Under the pieces are notes generated by a model. It saw nothing but the letters and a program-made list of their open reading frames with translations. It was not told where the DNA came from and did no database searches. Below are positions 2,645 through 52,331 of a stretch of 64,000 nt of DNA, one piece after another. The position numbers and the translations under genes were made by a program. Source of the stretch: a phage; the NCBI GenBank assembly GCA_037574385.1, contig GCA_037574385.1_4529.1, one strand, 5' to 3'. Within the stretch, counting starts at the first letter, position 1. Each line of letters opens with the position of its first letter.

Positions 2645-4116
2645 GGTCCAAATACGTCTTCAAACGAATCCGCTTCTGTTTTATCAAAACGGAACCCTTT
2701 AATAATTGGAAGGAAAATACCTACAGTACCTTCACGGCCTTTAGAATGAACCCAACCATTACATTCGCAATCAGCAATACGTCCGATCAATTTACCTTCA
2801 CGAGCTTCGGTCATTAATCGTTCACGGTCTAAATCATGACGCTCGTCTAAAGGAATAAGAACCTTTACACCGTCAACTGTTTTATGAGTTGTATCTTTAA
2901 AACCTGAACCACAATCGGTTGTAATACGACGACAACGTGATACGAGTTCGACACCGCCTAATTTGTTAGGGTCTTTAGAGTGTTCATAGTATCCTACAAC
3001 TTCTAAAGCGATATCAATAACTTCTTTAAATTTAATTAGGTTCTTAGAGCGTTTGTTTTCCCAATATGAATCACGGTTTTTAAGGATAATACCTTCAAGA
3101 CCTTGGTCAACATATTTTTTATAAACCACTTTAGCTTCATCAAGATTACGAACTAACTGGTTTTCGATAGGTTCAATTCGTTTAAAGCCTTCAGCCATAT
3201 TTTCAAGAGCAGCAAAACGAACATCGTATTTCTGACCTTTAATTTTGCCATCAGAATAGACTTCATCTAAAGGAACATAGTCCCAGGCTTGAAGAACCAT
3301 ACCTTCCGCTTCTTTAGGAGAAATAGTCCCTTGAAGAGATTTATTTGCTAAACCATTTGAAGTGCTACGGTCTGCAACTTGTACTTCTTCGGATTCTTCA
3401 TTATCACCAAATAAGAACGACAGGTCATTTCCTGAGCTCACAGCCTTTTTAATATCAAATGAATGATAAACTAATTCACCATCAATTAAAACCCCATTAG
3501 GGTGTCTTTCACGAGCTTCTTTAGTCATTTCCATTAGTTCATCTGCTAATAGGGTAAGACCATGGTATTCGTTACCGGCGCGAGAAAAGAATTGAACACC
3601 ATCATCGCGAACTTCAGCGAAACAACGAGCACCATCTGCTTTTAATTGGGCAAATGCGGGCCATTTAATATTTTTAGTAATCAATTTCTCATCATATGCA
3701 GATGCTAACATCTGTGGTTGCAATTGAATAAGACCAGGCCACACCTTATTCGCGATAGACACTGAAGCACCTACTTCAAGGTCGCGCATCATTACACGAC
3801 GAAGGACTTCTACATCATCAGGTTTACCATCAGCGATATAACCCATGAGCTCTTTAATTGCAGCATTACCAGTGAGTTTACGAGTGGCTAATGTGAACTC
3901 AATAAAATCCAACATGTCATCTAATTCAAGAAGACCATATGCTTGGGACCTTTCACCTGGTCCTGGCCATTTCTTAATATAATACTGGATACCACGTGCA
4001 TATGTTAAACGATACACACGTTCAAGTAATTTGTTGTCCTTATTTTTCTTAAGGATTTCCTGTTTTGTTTTAGTAGAACCGATCGCAGCTATTTGGTTTA
4101 AAATATCTAAAATCAT
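2623..4116 (-). CDS. 30: ATP-dependent DNA ligase
   Basis: 497 aa; adenylation motif KADGAR (KxDG); strong overall resemblance to T4 gp30 (487 aa). Confidence 0.85.
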   Translation of the reverse strand: MILDILNQIAAIGSTKTKQEILKKNKDNKLLERVYRLTYARGIQYYIKKWPGPGERSQAYGLLELDDMLDFIEFTLATRKLTGNAAIKELMGYIADGKPDDVEVLRRVMMRDLEVGASVSIANKVWPGLIQLQPQMLASAYDEKLITKNIKWPAFAQLKADGARCFAEVRDDGVQFFSRAGNEYHGLTLLADELMEMTKEARERHPNGVLIDGELVYHSFDIKKAVSSGNDLSFLFGDNEESEEVQVADRSTSNGLANKSLQGTISPKEAEGMVLQAWDYVPLDEVYSDGKIKGQKYDVRFAALENMAEGFKRIEPIENQLVRNLDEAKVVYKKYVDQGLEGIILKNRDSYWENKRSKNLIKFKEVIDIALEVVGYYEHSKDPNKLGGVELVSRCRRITTDCGSGFKDTTHKTVDGVKVLIPLDERHDLDRERLMTEAREGKLIGRIADCECNGWVHSKGREGTVGIFLPIIKGFRFDKTEADSFEDVFGPWSQTGL

Positions 4117-8056: not shown

Positions 8057-8389
8057 TCACTTATAAAGACACGGAATAGCTTTATAGTGGCATGTTACGA
8101 ATTTCTGTTTAATTTCTTTAGGTTGTTTAAGACCTAAAGCCACAAATGGATGTGGAACATTTCGAATTTGTCCAACTGGTAGTGGAGTCAAATCACCGAC
8201 TTCAACAAAACCTTCAGGAACATCAGGACCTACAGAATGAACTACACATAGTTCAGGAACTTCACCTTGAACACGTTTACCAATCACAAGTCCTGATTCG
8301 GTAACTTCTTCATCACCTGCTTGAGCGGGTTCAGAAACCAGAATGACATATTCACCAACAGCACGAATTGGGAGTTGTACTTCAGACAT
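8057..8389 (-). CDS. 31: Gp31 co-chaperonin (GroES analogue) for capsid protein folding
   Basis: 110 aa; near-identical in character to T4 gp31 ([33 protein letters not shown]). Confidence 0.85.
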
Positions 8390-47074: not shown

Positions 47075-47090
47075 AGCTCCCGAAGGAGCT
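47075..47090 (-). terminator. UUCG-tetraloop hairpin after gene 39
   Basis: AGCUCC-UUCG-GGAGCU overlapping the gp39 stop. Confidence 0.5.
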
Positions 47091-48907
47091 TAGGACATCC
47101 ATTCTTTACGAAGTTCTGAATCATCACCCAACAACATTTCAAAGAGTTCTTTCCAATTTTCAGGAAGTTTAACTACGTCGTACACAGGGTTTTGAATCAT
47201 TTCACGATATTCTGACTTTTCAAGGGAGCCCAATCCCTTGATGTATCGAATACTATGCTTAGGCAGTGTATCTTTAGCTTCTTCATACTCAGCTACAGTA
47301 TAAAACCATTTTTGAGTTTTGCCGATTTGTGCAATAATTACAGGTGTTTTAACAAAGCGAATACGTCCTTGTTCAAACAATTCAGGCCAATTACTAAAGA
47401 AAGCAAGCAAAGCCGGATAGATACTTCCAAGACCGTCATGATCGGCATCGGTCATAATTGCAATATTACGATAGTTCGTATTCTCTGCCTTTTCACCAAG
47501 AATAAGACCTGTGATAGCACAGATATCAAAGAGCTCTTTGTTCTTCATCATATCGGCATATGACATACCCCAGCTATTCATCACCTTACCACGTAATGGG
47601 AATCCGCCGTGTAGTTCACGGTCACGAACATCAATGAGATATCCAATTGCCGAATCACCTTCTGTTAAAAACAATGTCGTATCTGCATCTTTACCGCATT
47701 GGTTAGCTTTAATATGCTTATGAACCTTAGCTTTAGTTGCCTTTTTAGCTGCTTTAGTTTCTGCAGCCTTTTCTGCTGCCAATTTACGAGCTAATGCTGC
47801 TTCAACAATAGGCATAATCAAGGCTTCGTTTTTAAGAAGTGCCTGAGCAATTTTCTTAGCATCTAATTGGATATGATTACGAATATCACCATACGTTGAC
47901 GTTAAACGTTCTTTAGTCTGAGAATCAAAACGCATGTTGCTCATGTCTCTAATAAACATCAACATTGTGAGACATTCTTTAACACGAGCTTTAGTGACTT
48001 CAATACCCTTATATTTCTTTTTAATACCCGGCAAAAGATGTTCGCAAATATCATCCATTACACATTCAACATGATGACCACCATTTTTAGTATGGATGTT
48101 ATTCACATAAGTTAAATGACGGAAGCCATCCGGTGATGTTGTGAATGCTATAGAGACTTTATCATTTTCTTGAATGATGTTATCTTCACCAAATTGTTTA
48201 GCAAATCGTTTAAAATTGCCATCAACCTTTTTACCATTAAATGTGAACTTGATATCAGGATAAACGACTGCCAATGTTTGAAGTCGGTCTAAAGTAATAT
48301 CTAAATAAATTTGAGATAAATTATGCTCTTCAAATGAAGTGAAATCAGGAGTGAAGATTACTTTAGTGCCTTTACCTTTAGATTTCTTAGAAGACCATGA
48401 TTTGTTTTCCATTCCGTTTGAACAGTTAACAGTGATTTCATTTTCGCCATCTGACGTGATGCCTGTAAACAACGTAGAGAAGATATTAGTTAAACTACTC
48501 CCGACGCCGTTCATACCACCTGTCTTGCGTTCAGAGTCGTCACCAAAGTTACCACCGGCCTTTGGAATAGTCCAGGCTGCTACAGGCCCAGGAATTTGTT
48601 CACCCGTTTGGTCGGTAACTAAACCTTGAGGAATACCACGTCCGTTATCTTCCACTGAAACTTGATTATTTTTAATTTGCACATCAATTTTATTTGCAAA
48701 CTTAAATGATGTACGAATAGCTTCATCAACCGAGTTGTCAATAATCTCATCGATTAATTTAACCAGACCAGGAACATATTCAACTTGTTGATATTTACCA
48801 AACAAAAAACGCTCATGTGCTTCTTTAGCTGAAGAACCAATATACATACCACTACGTTTCTTAATATGTTCTACATCTGACAGTACCTTAATTTCATTTT
48901 TAATCAT
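47090..48907 (-). CDS. 39: DNA topoisomerase II large subunit, fused gp39+gp60 (GyrB-like)
   Basis: 605 aa in one ORF; GHKL ATPase N-terminus (DNSVDEA, GRGIP) plus Toprim region; T4 splits this into 39 (516 aa) and 60 with a translational bypass. Confidence 0.85.
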   Translation of the reverse strand: MIKNEIKVLSDVEHIKKRSGMYIGSSAKEAHERFLFGKYQQVEYVPGLVKLIDEIIDNSVDEAIRTSFKFANKIDVQIKNNQVSVEDNGRGIPQGLVTDQTGEQIPGPVAAWTIPKAGGNFGDDSERKTGGMNGVGSSLTNIFSTLFTGITSDGENEITVNCSNGMENKSWSSKKSKGKGTKVIFTPDFTSFEEHNLSQIYLDITLDRLQTLAVVYPDIKFTFNGKKVDGNFKRFAKQFGEDNIIQENDKVSIAFTTSPDGFRHLTYVNNIHTKNGGHHVECVMDDICEHLLPGIKKKYKGIEVTKARVKECLTMLMFIRDMSNMRFDSQTKERLTSTYGDIRNHIQLDAKKIAQALLKNEALIMPIVEAALARKLAAEKAAETKAAKKATKAKVHKHIKANQCGKDADTTLFLTEGDSAIGYLIDVRDRELHGGFPLRGKVMNSWGMSYADMMKNKELFDICAITGLILGEKAENTNYRNIAIMTDADHDGLGSIYPALLAFFSNWPELFEQGRIRFVKTPVIIAQIGKTQKWFYTVAEYEEAKDTLPKHSIRYIKGLGSLEKSEYREMIQNPVYDVVKLPENWKELFEMLLGDDSELRKEWMS

Positions 48908-48956
48908 GTTGTCTCCTCGTTATGAAGGTATTCTATCATCCGAAATCTAAAGCAAA

Positions 48957-48972
48957 AAGGGCCGAAGCCCTT
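48957..48972 (-). terminator. UUCG-tetraloop hairpin
   Basis: AAGGGC-UUCG-GCCCUU. Confidence 0.45.
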
Positions 48973-49396
48973 ATTTAAATTTAATTTTCTGAAGTGCATC
49001 AATTGCAGCCAAACGCCCTTGTTCACTTTTAACTGTAATGACCACATCGCCTGATACGATCACCGAACCATCAACAAATTCTATAGAGTCTTTTTTGAAA
49101 TCGACAGCTGTATCTGGTTCCGGAACTTCTTCAAAGAATTTAAATTCTGCACCATAAATCAGAATATCACCTTGCATACTATGAATAGTTCGGCCATAAT
49201 CGCCTACGGCTTCTACAGCAATCATTGAAACACCGTAACCAATCATCTCTTCCACAATAAAATCTTTAGACAATAAAGTAGTATGCAGATTAGTATTAAG
49301 ACGTTTACCAGTCGTATTAAGAATTCTCAAGAAATTATCTTCCTGTCCTTTGATAATACGGTATTTCTTGCCAATTTCAAAACCTTTAAAAGCCAT
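48971..49396 (-). CDS. Hypothetical protein
   Basis: 141-aa ORF. Confidence 0.5.
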   Translation of the reverse strand: MAFKGFEIGKKYRIIKGQEDNFLRILNTTGKRLNTNLHTTLLSKDFIVEEMIGYGVSMIAVEAVGDYGRTIHSMQGDILIYGAEFKFFEEVPEPDTAVDFKKDSIEFVDGSVIVSGDVVITVKSEQGRLAAIDALQKIKFK

Positions 49397-49401
49397 AATT
49401 A

Positions 49402-49578
49402 TCCCTTCTTAAGTAAGTCGTAAAAACCACCGTTCACATGTTTAGGAGCAGAAACCCGACGAGTAGACAGACGATGACATTCAGGGCAAACATCGTTTTC
49501 TCGTTCAGAAATCCTTTTAATTTTTTCATATTCATGACCACAATCTTCAGATTGACATTTATAGTCGTATAACGGCAT
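49402..49578 (-). CDS. FmdB-family zinc-ribbon protein (58 aa)
   Basis: Hand-called: MPLYDYKCQSEDCGHEYEKIKRISERENDVCPECHRLSTRRVSAPKHVNGGFYDLLKKG; CxxxC...CxxC pattern; SD AGGAAT upstream. Confidence 0.55.
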
Positions 49579-49580
49579 TA

Positions 49581-50009
49581 TTATTCCTTAAAATGTGTTT
49601 TCAACATTTGATACAAAGACCATGCCTGGTCGTTATTTTCGATAGTAATCGTCATCACCGGAAATTCGGTCAATTCATCAAGTTCTTCAGAGTCTTGCTC
49701 TTCAGACGCTTGATATGGATTTCCAACTTCATCAAAAAACTCTGCTTCACTAGTAGAGAGCCAGATAAAGTTTTCATCAAGAATATCACCACCAGTTGCG
49801 TATCCAACCATGCCAGTAGATGTCACAATTTTAGTAGGTCGACCAAGATGGTCAACATCTAATACTTTAAATGGTTCCATGCCAAGACGTCGTGCATAAA
49901 TCCCATTATCAGTGTGGTTTTTAATAAACTCTTCTTGGACACGTTTATCTTTAAATTGGTACCATGAGTTAACGCGGAATTTATTAGCCATTAGTAAGTT
50001 TCCTTCCAA
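49581..50009 (-). CDS. Hypothetical protein
   Basis: 142-aa ORF. Confidence 0.5.
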
Positions 50010-50263
50010 TAAGTTGTACCATTTTCAGTGATTTCACGGAAGATACCATAGATAGGCATTTCATCACCGAGTTTTTCGTAAACGTAAACCACTTCAGTGT
50101 AGCATAAAAATTCAGTCCAGTTTTTCTGTACAACAACTAAATCAGGATTAAACAGAACATCTTCAAACTCATCGATGTTTGAATCAGTAGTTACGTTTTT
50201 AATGATTTGACGTTTCATAATATTCTCCTCTTGTTTTGATAGGTCTATAGTATCATAGACCAT
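49991..50263 (-). CDS. Hypothetical protein
   Basis: 90-aa ORF with PeSL-type promoter upstream. Confidence 0.5.
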
Positions 50264-50859: not shown

Positions 50860-51279
50860 TTATGCGAAAGCAGCCGGGCTATATTTTTTAATTTGGAATT
50901 CAGGAACTACCATGAACTGACCAGCGAAAACGATGTTATAAAGCTTAACACCATCTTCTACCCAACGGTCGCTAATAAATCCGGCGATTTGCTTAGTTTT
51001 CCATGGCGTTCCATCGGTTGCCGCAGCAATAGTGAATTCGTGGTCTTTTTCAACAGAAACTGATCTGCATAGTCCCCATTTGAACGCTTTTTCTTCTGGT
51101 TCAATGAATTGGCTTGAGACGTAGCCAATGTTGCCATCAGCATCACGAACTTTAACTTGATGTGGACTAAAGAGTCCACAACTTACAGAAAGAACTTCAA
51201 CCAACTTCCCAGCAACTTTAGAGCGAGAAGCAACAGATACATATACGTAATCACCAATAGAGAGATTTGCAATATTCAT
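50860..51279 (-). CDS. Hypothetical protein, paralog family member 1
   Basis: 139 aa; shares N-terminal SRSKVAGKLVEV and C-terminal GFISDRWVEDGVKLYNIVFAGQFMVVPE with the next two genes. Confidence 0.55.
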   Translation of the reverse strand: MNIANLSIGDYVYVSVASRSKVAGKLVEVLSVSCGLFSPHQVKVRDADGNIGYVSSQFIEPEEKAFKWGLCRSVSVEKDHEFTIAAATDGTPWKTKQIAGFISDRWVEDGVKLYNIVFAGQFMVVPEFQIKKYSPAAFA

Positions 51280-51288
51280 AATAATTCC

Positions 51289-51774
51289 TTAAGCTTTACG
51301 AGGAGACACATAACGAGTGATTTCGGATTCTTTAACAACTCTGAAGTCACCTAAGAATACGATATTGTATAACTTTTCACCATCTTCAACCCATTGGTCA
51401 CTAATGAAGCCACACATAGTATCAGTTTTGCTTGGATAACCGTATTCATCGATGAAGTCAAATTCTTTATCAGTCTGGAATTCAACGCCTTTGCAAAGGG
51501 CCCATTTGAACTGTACATTATGCTCTGTGGATTCAACTTTTTCTCTTGAAGCAAAAGCACTACTCACAGGCGTTTCCAAGAACTTTGCACGAACATAAGC
51601 AAATTTGGTTTCCTGTGTCCCAAAACTAGGAATAATACGAACCTTTACCTCAGAATCTTCATCTTTAACGCCTTCTTTAAGTTGAATACTTACAACTTCG
51701 ACCAATTTTCCTGCGGCTTTAGAACGAGATTTGTTAGATACGCGAACGATTTCACCAATAATACCAAGATTCAT
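51289..51774 (-). CDS. Hypothetical protein, paralog family member 2
   Basis: Tracked ORF 51289..51837 over-extended; probable start MNLGIIGE at about 51774; shares SRSKAAGKLVEV and GFISDQWVEDGEKLYNIVFLGDFRVVKE. Confidence 0.5.
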   Translation of the reverse strand: MNLGIIGEIVRVSNKSRSKAAGKLVEVVSIQLKEGVKDEDSEVKVRIIPSFGTQETKFAYVRAKFLETPVSSAFASREKVESTEHNVQFKWALCKGVEFQTDKEFDFIDEYGYPSKTDTMCGFISDQWVEDGEKLYNIVFLGDFRVVKESEITRYVSPRKA

Positions 51775-51836
51775 AATTTCTCTCTCTTTGTTTAAATTGA
51801 ATTCATTATACTCCATCCATCCTTGGATGTACAACA

Positions 51837-52331
51837 TTAATTAAGGATATTAACCACAGCACTACGTGGAACTACACTAAAATCACCTGCATGAACAACG
51901 TTCAGAAGTTCAACACCGTCTTCAATCCACTGGTCAGTTACCCATCCATTTACTGGACCTGCGAAAGGACGTCGAATTGAAACATATTTACACAGCAAAT
52001 CAGTAGGCTCAATAGGCTTAATCAGAGTACCGTACATACAAGCGATATCCATATCAATACAGATGTCTTTAACGGGTTCTACTTCTTCAATCAACAGTTC
52101 AAAGTCTGTGCTTGGAAGGGCGGTAGTGGAAATTGTACCATATGAATTTTTAATTTCTAAGAATAACCAAGGGCCTTCAGCTTGTTTGATGAAGTTAACA
52201 ATAGTGAAACTATTGCCTTGAGTGGCACCTAAAATTTCACAAAACTTTTCGTAAGCTCGCACTGAAGCACTGTACCAGTTGATTTGTTTTTCGTCTTTCA
52301 GGATGTAAGTAGCCGTAGTATTGATATTCAT
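51837..52331 (-). CDS. Hypothetical protein, paralog family member 3 (divergent)
   Basis: 164 aa; C-terminal GWVTDQWIEDGVELLNVVHAGDFSVVPR aligns with members 1 and 2. Confidence 0.5.
   Translation of the reverse strand: MNINTTATYILKDEKQINWYSASVRAYEKFCEILGATQGNSFTIVNFIKQAEGPWLFLEIKNSYGTISTTALPSTDFELLIEEVEPVKDICIDMDIACMYGTLIKPIEPTDLLCKYVSIRRPFAGPVNGWVTDQWIEDGVELLNVVHAGDFSVVPRSAVVNILN

What the first reader, a model, noticed from the sequence alone, without database searches (positions are those of the whole stretch)
49402..49578. Unannotated FmdB-type zinc-ribbon protein (58 aa)
MPLYDYKCQSEDCGHEYE...CPECH is the classic CxxxC...CxxC putative-regulatory zinc-ribbon signature. It fills an otherwise unexplained 184-bp gap and has an SD. 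Small zinc ribbons in phages often act as transcription or translation regulators.
Basis: seen in the sequence. Interest (0 to 1): 0.45.

Follow-up and report, generated by a model that had tools for sequence, protein, structure and literature searches.

The report
Known phage GroEL modulator, gene 39.2
The small zinc-ribbon gene is real, but it is the already-studied T4-family gene 39.2 (NwgI), whose product tunes the host GroEL protein-folding machine rather than regulating transcription, so the finding is ordinary.

Summary
The ORF exists: minus strand, 49399..49578 including the stop, 59 aa. It has an AAGGA Shine-Dalgarno and exactly fills the 184-bp gap. It passes the curated FmdB zinc-ribbon thresholds (PF09723 49.3 bits; TIGR02605 48.0 bits). 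dN/dS is 0.01-0.11, and all 146 family representatives that could be scored keep four metal ligands.

It is neither new nor generally unannotated. The window is a Mosigvirus (RB69-like T4-type phage). The protein is 100% identical to RB69 gp39.2 and about 82% identical to T4 gp39.2. It keeps the same place in the early gene cluster upstream of topoisomerase gene 39 across eight phage genera.

T4 gp39.2 (NwgI; Ang & Georgopoulos 2012) is a genetically and biochemically characterised modulator of GroEL/GroES. The "FmdB-like transcriptional regulator" product name has no experimental basis that I could find.

I found two supporting links. A clade of jumbo phages places a homologue directly upstream of GroES (13 of 13 loci). 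The other characterised family member, M. tuberculosis Ruc, is a zinc-dependent chaperone and is homologous over the whole length (hhalign 96.8%).

Verdict: observation confirmed, family call right, functional guess not supported, already known.

The parts
49399..49578 (-). Gene 39.2 (nwgI orthologue): 59 codons plus a TAA stop. It encodes a minimal FmdB-family zinc-ribbon protein.
   Evidence: ORF list and sequence. PF09723 E=5e-13. TIGR02605 E=9e-13. 100% aa identity to RB69 NP_861696.1, with 3 synonymous nt differences. dN/dS 0.01-0.11.
49585..49589 (-). Shine-Dalgarno AAGGA, 6 nt upstream of the ATG. It lies inside the last codons of goF (goF stop TAA at 49581..49583), so translational coupling is likely.
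   Evidence: Junction sequence AAGGAATAATAATG. The same arrangement is seen in T4, T2 and T4 GT7.
49540..49557 (-). Zinc knuckle 1, residues 8-13 (CQSEDC; ligands C8 and C13).
   Evidence: Read from the sequence. C8 is invariant. The second ligand is Cys or His in all relatives. C-x4-C spacing occurs in 41 of 146 representatives. It corresponds to Ruc C8/C11, which were shown to bind zinc (PMC7448276).
49477..49488 (-). Zinc knuckle 2, residues 31-34 (CPEC; ligands C31 and C34).
   Evidence: Read from the sequence. C34 is invariant and C31 is at least 90% conserved. It corresponds to Ruc C29/C32.
49417..49452 (-). Conserved C-terminal motif SAPKHVNGGFYD (residues 43-54). P45, G50, G51 and D54 are invariant among T4-type orthologues. 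It is a candidate partner-binding surface (inferred).
   Evidence: Alignment A2. It aligns with Ruc VVFKGTGFYRTD in hhalign. It is homologous to the bacterial SAPxxxFKGSGWYxxDY block. The AF2 model shows lower confidence here, with a short helix at 52-56.
49581..49991 (-). goF (upstream neighbour, same transcription direction). Its 3' end carries the 39.2 SD.
   Evidence: Annotated in Shf125875 and RB69. phrog_622 E=3e-37.
48971..49396 (-). RB69 ORF005c-like gene (downstream neighbour). Its ATG lies 2 nt after the 39.2 stop, and its SD (AAGGGA) lies within the last codons of 39.2.
   Evidence: Junction AAGAAGGGATAATTATG. phrog_622 E=9e-22. Annotation.
48957..48972 (-). Terminator-like GC hairpin plus T-run, at the end of ORF005c and before gene 39. 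It is the likely 3' end of the transcription unit that contains 39.2.
   Evidence: Consensus scan. A 'terminator' feature is annotated under the 1.2-kb match (window 48900-50100) in the PhAPEC2 and NRG-P0074 records; its exact position was not checked. This is a pattern match only.
47090..48907 (-). Gene 39 (fused 60+39 topoisomerase II large subunit, 605 aa). It is the synteny anchor from which 39.2 takes its name.
   Evidence: phrog_543 E=8e-287. Annotation.
8057..8389 (-). Gene 31, the phage GroES-like co-chaperonin (110 aa). It is the phage-encoded partner of host GroEL in the pathway that gp39.2 modulates. It is functionally linked, not adjacent.
   Evidence: ORF. phrog_931 'head morphogenesis' E=5e-50. 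96% identical to my recalled T4 gp31 sequence. Role of gp31 as described in PMC5649160.

Best explanation
This is gene 39.2 (nwgI) of a Mosigvirus, an RB69-like T4-type phage. It encodes a 59-aa, single-domain FmdB-family zinc ribbon. Four ligands (C8, C13, C31, C34) hold one zinc ion, and a conserved SAPK-x-V-x-GGFYD tail follows.

The gene is transcribed with the non-essential early genes upstream of topoisomerase gene 39, and it is translationally coupled to goF and ORF005c. Its product acts on the host GroEL/GroES chaperonin. It shifts GroEL towards the open state that accepts a co-chaperonin (host GroES or phage gp31). This safeguards GroEL-dependent folding of phage proteins such as the major capsid protein, on hosts whose GroEL works poorly for the phage.

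Shown here: the ORF, family membership, identity to RB69 gp39.2, synteny, purifying selection, ligand conservation and the chaperonin-linked context of homologues.

Shown in the literature for T4 gp39.2: GroEL/GroES modulation, and the host-specific block of a 39.2 deletion mutant.

Inferred: that this identical or near-identical protein does the same; that the zinc ribbon is the scaffold and the GGFYD tail the contact surface; and early timing from gene position.
For: - Orthology. The protein is 100% identical to RB69 gp39.2, with only 3 synonymous nt changes. It is 93% identical to T2 gp39.2 and 82.5% to T4. The Shf125875 record notes 'similar to RB69 39.2'.
- Synteny. The gene lies in the early gene cluster upstream of topoisomerase gene 39 (downstream of dda/dexA wherever these are annotated) in Tequatro-, Mosig-, Dhaka-, Gapriver-, Moon-, Krisch-, Pseudoteven- and Muldoonvirus.
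- Function of T4 gp39.2. [quoted passage not shown] PMC4396842 gives the same summary.
- Real protein under constraint. dN/dS is 0.01-0.11. M1, Y4, C8 and C34 are invariant, and P2, Y6, C31 and G51 are at least 90% conserved. All 146 scored representatives keep four ligands.
- Independent context. In Rak2/121Q/GAP32/CBB-type jumbo phages a homologue with the same C-x4-C knuckle sits 20-30 nt upstream of a Cpn10/GroES gene in 13 of 13 loci.
- Family-level consistency. M. tuberculosis Ruc (Rv0991c) belongs to the same TIGR02605/PF09723 family, and hhalign gives 96.8%, E=2e-10, over 60 columns. Ruc is a zinc-binding chaperone co-regulated with hsp60/hsp70, and its bacterial homologues neighbour dnaK, grpE, clpB and groES/groEL (PMC7448276).
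- Pathway partner. The phage co-chaperonin gene 31 is present in the same window.
Against: - No experiment was done on this phage's own copy, so the function is transferred by identity.
- The primary paper (Genetics 190:989, PMC3296260) is not held. The details rest on the senior author's later summary, on one citing paper, and on my recollection of the abstract.
- The molecular contact with GroEL is unknown. No solved structure of any family member was found.
- The AF2 model is only moderately confident: pLDDT is 84-86 for residues 1-40 and about 60 for the tail.
- The jumbo-phage adjacency comes from one clade and counts as a single evolutionary event.
- In T4-type phages 39.2 is not adjacent to gene 31.
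- The gene is disrupted in a few database records: the T4 RefSeq, vB_SsoM_113 and Manna. That is consistent with dispensability on ordinary hosts or with sequencing errors.
Confidence: 0.85

Rival explanations
1. It is a transcriptional or translational regulator, as the first reader suggested and as the product name 'FmdB-like transcriptional regulator' implies. The zinc ribbon would bind DNA, RNA polymerase or the ribosome.
For: - PHROG 1076 and many RefSeq records carry the name 'FmdB-like transcriptional regulator'.
- Weak, sub-threshold Pfam similarity to Ogr/Delta (E=0.012, 15.9 bits against a cut-off of 26.3).
- Non-significant Foldseek neighbours include RNAP-associated zinc ribbons such as RpoP/Rpb12 and RbpA (E of at least 0.38).
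- The neighbours goF, cef and motB are modifiers of RNA metabolism and transcription.
Against: - No experimental support for the FmdB label was found; the name looks like a legacy label.
- There is no DNA-binding domain beyond the ribbon itself.
- The fold hits are generic zinc ribbons and not significant.
- Direct genetics and biochemistry on T4 gp39.2 point to GroEL/GroES.
- The other characterised family member is a chaperone.
Confidence: 0.05
2. It is a Ruc-type redox-regulated holdase. The zinc-bound form would be inactive. Oxidation would release zinc, and the protein would then bind unfolded clients directly and hand them to DnaK or GroEL, rather than acting on GroEL itself.
For: - It belongs to the same curated family as Ruc, and homology spans all 59 residues including the GxGFY motif.
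- The ligand positions are equivalent to Ruc C8/C11/C29/C32.
- Ruc works with the Hsp70 system and is co-regulated with hsp60.
Against: - Ruc residues 1-49 alone have no holdase activity; the long disordered C-terminus is required. gp39.2 has only 5 residues after the GGFYD motif.
- The allele-specific interaction with groEL/groES mutants reported for T4 gp39.2 fits a direct effect on the chaperonin better (the allele specificity is also from my recollection of the 2012 abstract).
- Some orthologues replace the second Cys by His.
Confidence: 0.08
3. It is a chance ORF or degenerating remnant in an intergenic spacer, with no function.
For: - It is short (59 aa).
- It is left unannotated in some records, for example T4 GT7.
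- It is truncated or frameshifted in a few others.
Against: - dN/dS is 0.01-0.11 with synonymous sites saturated.
- It is found in 956 phage records, 913 of them with at least 80% coverage.
- It scores above the thresholds of two curated models.
- It has a well-placed SD and tight coupling to both neighbours.
- A T4 deletion mutant has a phenotype.
Confidence: 0.01

Closest known systems
Bacteriophage T4/RB69 gp39.2 = NwgI (Ang & Georgopoulos, Genetics 2012;190:989; summarised in PMC5153855)
   Same: It is the same gene. The protein is 100% identical to RB69 gp39.2 and 82.5% to T4. Size (57-59 aa), position upstream of gene 39, C-x4-C...C-x2-C ligands and GGFYDLL tail all match.
   Different: Nothing of substance. 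There are three synonymous nucleotide changes relative to RB69. Compared with T4 there is one extra C-terminal residue (KKG versus KG) and about 10 substitutions. In Mosigvirus the downstream neighbour is the 141-aa ORF005c, not 39.1.
Mycobacterium tuberculosis Ruc (Rv0991c), a redox-regulated molecular chaperone (PMC7448276)
   Same: It belongs to the same curated family, TIGR02605/PF09723. hhalign gives 96.8% probability over 60 columns. Both have the MPxYxYxC start, four ligands with a 17-residue spacer, and a GxGFY motif. Both are tied to the Hsp60/Hsp70 proteostasis network.
   Different: Ruc is 110 aa, with a roughly 55-residue serine-rich disordered tail that is required for holdase activity; gp39.2 lacks it. 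Ruc has a C-x2-C first knuckle. Pairwise identity is only 24% over 34 aa. Ruc is a cellular stress protein activated by oxidation, and gp39.2 is a viral modulator of GroEL. Membership of the family is met, but membership of the 'Ruc-type holdase' functional class is not supported.
Zinc-ribbon gene upstream of GroES in Rak2/121Q/GAP32/CBB-type jumbo phages (e.g. Yersinia phage fHe-Yen9-04 g260, Salmonella phage 7t3 0469)
   Same: PF09723 and TIGR02605 are both above threshold. It has the same C-x4-C first knuckle (CSIEEC) and an EKIxKIxxRE core, with 53% identity over the first 34-35 residues. It is linked to the chaperonin system through adjacency to Cpn10 in 13 of 13 loci.
   Different: It is 68-69 aa with a different tail (…YFRGNWFANTGGY). 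It is physically adjacent to the co-chaperonin gene, whereas T4-type phages keep 39.2 and gene 31 far apart. No experiments are known to me.
FmdB of Methylophilus methylotrophus, the name-giver of the family (putative regulator of formamidase expression; from my own knowledge of the Pfam/TIGRFAM descriptions, not checked here)
   Same: Same Pfam/TIGRFAM family, by definition of the models.
   Different: The 'regulatory' label was, to my knowledge, assigned from gene position only. I found no paper in the library that supports a regulatory mechanism.

Membership tests
FmdB-family zinc ribbon (Pfam PF09723 Zn_ribbon_8 / NCBIfam TIGR02605 CxxC_CxxC_SSSS) | Score above the curated whole-protein cut-offs of the family models | tested here: met
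   PF09723 49.3 bits against GA 34.4, E=5e-13. TIGR02605 48.0 bits against 31.3, E=9e-13.
FmdB-family zinc ribbon (Pfam PF09723 Zn_ribbon_8 / NCBIfam TIGR02605 CxxC_CxxC_SSSS) | The domain begins at the initiator Met with MPxYxYxC, and has two Cys knuckles separated by about 17 residues | tested here: met
   MPLYDYKC; C8-x4-C13, 17 residues, C31-x2-C34. The first knuckle is the C-x4-C variant, found in 41 of 146 representatives. Ruc is described as CxxC-N17-CxxC.
   C8 and C34 invariant, C31 at least 90% conserved, second ligand Cys or His. 146 of 146 representatives have two knuckles.
FmdB-family zinc ribbon (Pfam PF09723 Zn_ribbon_8 / NCBIfam TIGR02605 CxxC_CxxC_SSSS) | Zinc-ribbon fold (two beta-hairpins presenting the knuckles) | tested here: inconclusive
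   The AF2 model has strands at 3-8, 16-20, 28-30 and 37-40, with the knuckles at the hairpin turns, and pLDDT 84-86 for residues 1-40. Foldseek against the PDB finds only generic zinc ribbons at a non-significant E of at least 0.38. There is no sequence relative in the PDB. I could not read the model coordinates to measure S-S distances.
FmdB-family zinc ribbon (Pfam PF09723 Zn_ribbon_8 / NCBIfam TIGR02605 CxxC_CxxC_SSSS) | Stoichiometric zinc binding through the cysteines | not testable with these tools
   Shown for Ruc by ICP-MS and Cys-to-Ser variants (PMC7448276). Not known to me for gp39.2.
T4-type gp39.2 / NwgI orthologous group | High sequence identity to the characterised T4/RB69 protein over the full length | tested here: met
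   100% to RB69 NP_861696.1. 93% to T2 and 82.5% to T4 over 57 aa.
T4-type gp39.2 / NwgI orthologous group | Conserved position in the early cluster, upstream of topoisomerase gene 39 and downstream of goF/dexA | tested here: met
   Window order is goF-39.2-ORF005c-39. The same or an equivalent order is seen in RB69, Shf125875, T4, T2, JS10, VR7, Moon, ECD7, Miller and Muldoon.
T4-type gp39.2 / NwgI orthologous group | Modulates GroEL/GroES: suppresses groEL/groES mutant phenotypes, and is required on specific groEL mutant hosts | not testable with these tools
   Reported for T4 gp39.2 (PMC5153855; PMC4396842). Transferred here by sequence identity.
Ruc-type redox-regulated holdase chaperone | N-terminal zinc-ribbon domain homologous to Ruc residues 1-49 | tested here: met
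   hhalign 96.8%, E=2e-10. Both proteins are in TIGR02605.
Ruc-type redox-regulated holdase chaperone | Long intrinsically disordered hydrophilic C-terminal domain, required for anti-aggregation activity | tested here: not met
   gp39.2 ends 5 residues after the GGFYD motif. The Ruc N-terminal domain alone is inactive. Ruc carries about 55 further residues.
DNA-binding or RNAP-binding zinc-finger transcription factors (e.g. Ogr/Delta) | Significant match to a known DNA- or RNAP-binding domain model | tested here: not met
   Ogr_Delta scores 15.9 bits against a cut-off of 26.3, over 14 residues only. No other domain is found. Structural neighbours are not significant.

The most novel reading that the evidence does not exclude
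The FmdB family as a whole (PF09723/TIGR02605) would be a family of zinc-ribbon cofactors of the Hsp60/Hsp70 chaperone network, not a family of regulators. It is widely annotated as 'transcriptional regulator' in bacteria and phages.

On this reading, gp39.2 is a virus-borne, tail-less 'mini-Ruc'. It keeps only the zinc ribbon and the GxG[FW]Y motif in order to dock on GroEL. Its cysteine-zinc site might make GroEL modulation sensitive to the redox or zinc state of the infected cell.

Three independent lines converge on this: the T4 genetics (NwgI), the Ruc biochemistry and bacterial gene neighbourhoods, and the FmdB-GroES gene pair of jumbo phages. No paper in the searchable library mentions both Rv0991c and NwgI/gp39.2, and the Ruc paper never mentions phages.
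Probability: 0.3. Interest if true: 0.55.

Novelty: already known. Interest (0 to 1): 0.15.

Why it matters
For this window it matters little, because the gene is the known 39.2/nwgI of RB69-type phages. Its value is practical in three ways.

1. Most phage records call this protein 'hypothetical' or 'FmdB-like transcriptional regulator'. Yet the only experimental data for the phage protein and for a bacterial relative point to chaperone biology, so the product name misleads automated annotation and readers, including the first-stage reader.
2. The T4 reference genome carries a truncated 45-aa version that hides the conserved tail.
3. If the family-wide link to chaperones holds, a very large and broadly distributed family of small bacterial and viral proteins would gain a testable function. 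The Ruc authors report homologues in most bacterial phyla.

Tried and rejected
- **Primary paper.** PMC3296260 / doi 10.1534/genetics.111.135640 is not held. I relied on PMC5153855 and PMC4396842. Other citing papers only list the reference.
- **Word-indexed homologue search.** It returned only 8 close clusters. I replaced it with the exhaustive HMMER search.
- **PDB sequence search.** Only bL31 at E about 0.3, which is not meaningful.
- **Foldseek against the PDB.** Generic zinc ribbons, none significant.
- **Promoter scan.** 20 sites against 18.7 expected, so no information. The terminator-like hairpins are pattern matches only.
- **Literature on FmdB / PF09723 / TIGR02605 function.** Nothing functional apart from Ruc.
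- **The 10 more distant viral loci (L030-L039).** None has Cpn10 within 3 kb, so the GroES adjacency is clade-specific.
- **GroES mobile-loop mimicry, considered but not tested.** NGGFYDLL resembles the GroES mobile loop AGGIVLTG (GG followed by hydrophobic residues) and might occupy the GroEL apical groove. This is speculation from memory of the GroES sequence. No complex prediction tool was available, so it is not part of the claim.
- **Overlapping ORFs.** 49438..49572 (+) and 49434..49541 (-) were rejected as chance frames. The second is the frame into which the frameshifted database entries P0007 and P0008 run.

Full report
**1. The observation**

An ORF occupies window 49399..49578 on the minus strand: 59 codons plus TAA. 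Its product is MPLYDYKCQSEDCGHEYEKIKRISERENDVCPECHRLSTRRVSAPKHVNGGFYDLLKKG.

The 184-bp gap between the flanking genes is exact. The Shine-Dalgarno is real: AAGGA lies 6 nt before the ATG, inside the last codons of the upstream gene goF. In turn, the stop of the ORF lies 2 nt before the ATG of the downstream gene, whose SD lies in the ORF's last codons. The three genes are therefore tightly packed on one strand and probably translationally coupled.

The general sigma-70 promoter scan gives no signal above shuffles (20 sites against 18.7 expected). A terminator-like hairpin lies at 48957..48972, after the downstream gene.

**2. Is it a real gene?**

Yes.
- Pfam Zn_ribbon_8 (PF09723) matches residues 1-42 at 49.3 bits (cut-off 34.4).
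- NCBIfam TIGR02605 'FmdB family zinc ribbon protein' matches at 48.0 bits (cut-off 31.3).
- tblastn finds the protein in 956 phage records, 913 of them with at least 80% coverage.
- Nei-Gojobori dN/dS between the window, T2, T4 GT7, JS10 and VR7 is 0.01-0.11, with synonymous sites near or at saturation.
- The three nucleotide differences from RB69 are all synonymous.

**3. What it is**

The 1.2-kb neighbourhood is 97-99% identical to Mosigvirus genomes such as ESh27, Shf125875 and phiC120. Its product is 100% identical to RB69 NP_861696.1.

It is 93% identical to T2 gp39.2 and 82.5% identical to the T4 protein. The gene keeps its place in the early cluster upstream of topoisomerase gene 39 (downstream of dda/dexA wherever these are annotated), in eight genera that include the distant Krisch-, Pseudoteven- and Muldoonviruses. 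So this is gene 39.2, not an unknown ORF.

**4. What is known about gp39.2**

The primary paper (Ang & Georgopoulos, Genetics 2012;190:989) is not in the library.

Its senior author summarises it as follows. [quoted passage not shown] PMC4396842 states the same.

From my own recollection of the 2012 abstract, which I could not verify here:
- the gene first recovered in the selection was RB69 39.2, the very protein encoded in this window;
- the homologues of T4, RB43 and RB49 behaved alike;
- overproduction was lethal to the host.

T4-type phages need host GroEL plus their own co-chaperonin gp31 to fold the major capsid protein (PMC5649160). Gene 31 is present in this window at 8057..8389.

**5. 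Anatomy and conservation**

Among T4-type orthologues M1, Y4, Y6, C8, C34, P45, G50, G51 and D54 are invariant.

Across the wider family C8 and C34 are invariant and C31 is at least 90% conserved. The second ligand is Cys or His, and the knuckle spacing varies: CxxC 85, Cx4C 41, CxC 11 and C..H 9 of 146 representatives. All 146 retain two knuckles.

The AF2 model (33-sequence alignment, mean pLDDT 77) has four short strands with the knuckles at the two hairpins. The tail is less confident and holds a short helix at 52-56. There is no close solved structure.

The C-terminal SAPKHVNGGFYD block is not phage-specific. It is the counterpart of the bacterial SAPxxxFKGSGWYxxDY block.

**6. The wider family**

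I found no experimental support for the 'FmdB regulator' name.

The one characterised bacterial member is M. tuberculosis Rv0991c (Ruc). The paper (PMC7448276) reports that:
- it binds one zinc ion through C8/C11/C29/C32;
- it becomes an anti-aggregation chaperone on oxidation or zinc loss;
- it needs its disordered C-terminus for that activity;
- it cooperates with the Hsp70 system and is co-regulated with hsp60/hsp70;
- its homologues neighbour dnaK, grpE, clpB, hrcA and groES/groEL genes in several phyla.

I confirmed that the M. tuberculosis protein belongs to the same curated family (TIGR02605, 64 bits). It is 110 aa, is named 'conserved serine-rich protein', and has cysteines at exactly those positions. 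A profile of T4-type gp39.2 aligns to a profile of mycobacterial Ruc over 60 columns with 96.8% probability, and GGFYD falls on GTGFYRTD.

gp39.2 lacks the disordered tail that Ruc needs. It is a family member, but probably not a Ruc-type holdase.

**7. Independent context**

The weakest tblastn hits were to jumbo phages (fHe-Yen9-04 and 7t3). There a 68-69-aa PF09723 protein with the same C-x4-C knuckle lies directly upstream of a Cpn10/GroES gene (Pfam Cpn10 E=1e-16).

A scan of viral contigs found 13 full-length relatives, 61-100% identical, on contigs of up to 378 kb. All 13 have GroES 20-30 nt downstream. Ten more distant loci have none.

This is one clade and so one evolutionary event. 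It is nonetheless a second link between this zinc ribbon and the chaperonin system that does not depend on the literature.

**8. Mechanism and rivals**

Best explanation (0.85): an early, non-essential host-takeover protein that binds or otherwise acts on GroEL and biases it towards the co-chaperonin-accepting state. This secures GroEL/gp31-dependent folding of phage proteins on hosts with sub-optimal GroEL. The roles of the zinc ribbon (scaffold) and the GGFYD tail (contact) are inferences.

Rivals:
- transcription or translation regulator (0.05): name only, with no domain and no data;
- Ruc-like redox holdase (0.08): same family, but the required tail is missing;
- chance ORF (0.01): refuted.

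**9. Novelty**

Already known. The only mildly new points are at the family level. The phage NwgI, the bacterial Ruc and the jumbo-phage FmdB-GroES pair all point to chaperone biology. No paper in the searchable library holds both Rv0991c and NwgI/gp39.2. The widespread product name is therefore probably a misnomer.

Noticed in passing
L002 2703-2840 (T4 NC_000866.4 5702..5839); L004 1501-1677 (T4 GT7): The T4 RefSeq annotates 39.2 as a truncated 45-aa protein. Relative to T4 GT7, T2 and this window it has a 1-nt insertion (gcTtcc) and several G/A discrepancies within 180 nt. T4 GT7 has the intact 58-aa ORF but no CDS annotated there. The cause is likely old sequencing errors in the reference.
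   Followed up: partly
L013 2501-3017; L015 2501-2994; L017-L029 (about 3001-3516): In Rak2/121Q/GAP32/CBB-type jumbo phages an FmdB-family zinc-ribbon gene lies immediately upstream of a Cpn10/GroES gene in 13 of 13 loci. The zinc ribbon is annotated as 'hypothetical' or even 'type I antifreeze protein'.
   Followed up: partly
P0007 (Shigella phage vB_SsoM_113), P0008 (Salmonella phage Manna): These are frameshifted 47-aa versions of gp39.2 that run into the alternative frame (…NVIVCLLVGLLLLSM) after the second knuckle's first Cys. They are either sequencing errors or real inactivation of a dispensable gene.
   Followed up: no
window 48971-49396 (-) and 49581-49991 (-): 39.2 is sandwiched between two genes that both match PHROG 622 and the goF-like families (ORF005c and goF). 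They look like distant paralogues, since pairwise BLASTP gives only E=0.025. T4 has the unrelated 39.1 in place of ORF005c.
   Followed up: partly
window 8057-8389 (-): Gene 31, the phage GroES-like co-chaperonin (110 aa, phrog_931 E=5e-50), lies in the same window about 41 kb from 39.2.
   Followed up: yes
window 50860-51279, 51289-51837, 51837-52331 (all -): Three consecutive ORFs share a C-terminal motif (…ISD(R/Q)WVEDG.KLYN(I/V)V..G.F.VV…). Two of them are annotated as MotB-like and one as motB.1, so this is a tandem MotB-family paralogue array.
   Followed up: no
window 47090-48907 (-): The topoisomerase II large subunit is the fused 60+39 form (605 aa), as in RB69 and T2. It therefore lacks the T4 split, the mobA insertion and the gene 60 bypass.
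   Followed up: no
window 48957-48972: A perfect GC-rich hairpin (AAGGGCTTCGGCCCTT) has T-runs on both strands, which makes it a bidirectional terminator-like element between ORF005c and gene 39. The goF stop codon also overlaps a smaller hairpin at 49618-49631.
   Followed up: no
P0012 (449 aa), P0025 (828 aa), P0042 (792 aa), P0079, P0128: Long metagenomic proteins carry 4-6 separate matches to the gp39.2 zinc ribbon. These are tandem arrays of the domain in large proteins of unknown function.
   Followed up: no
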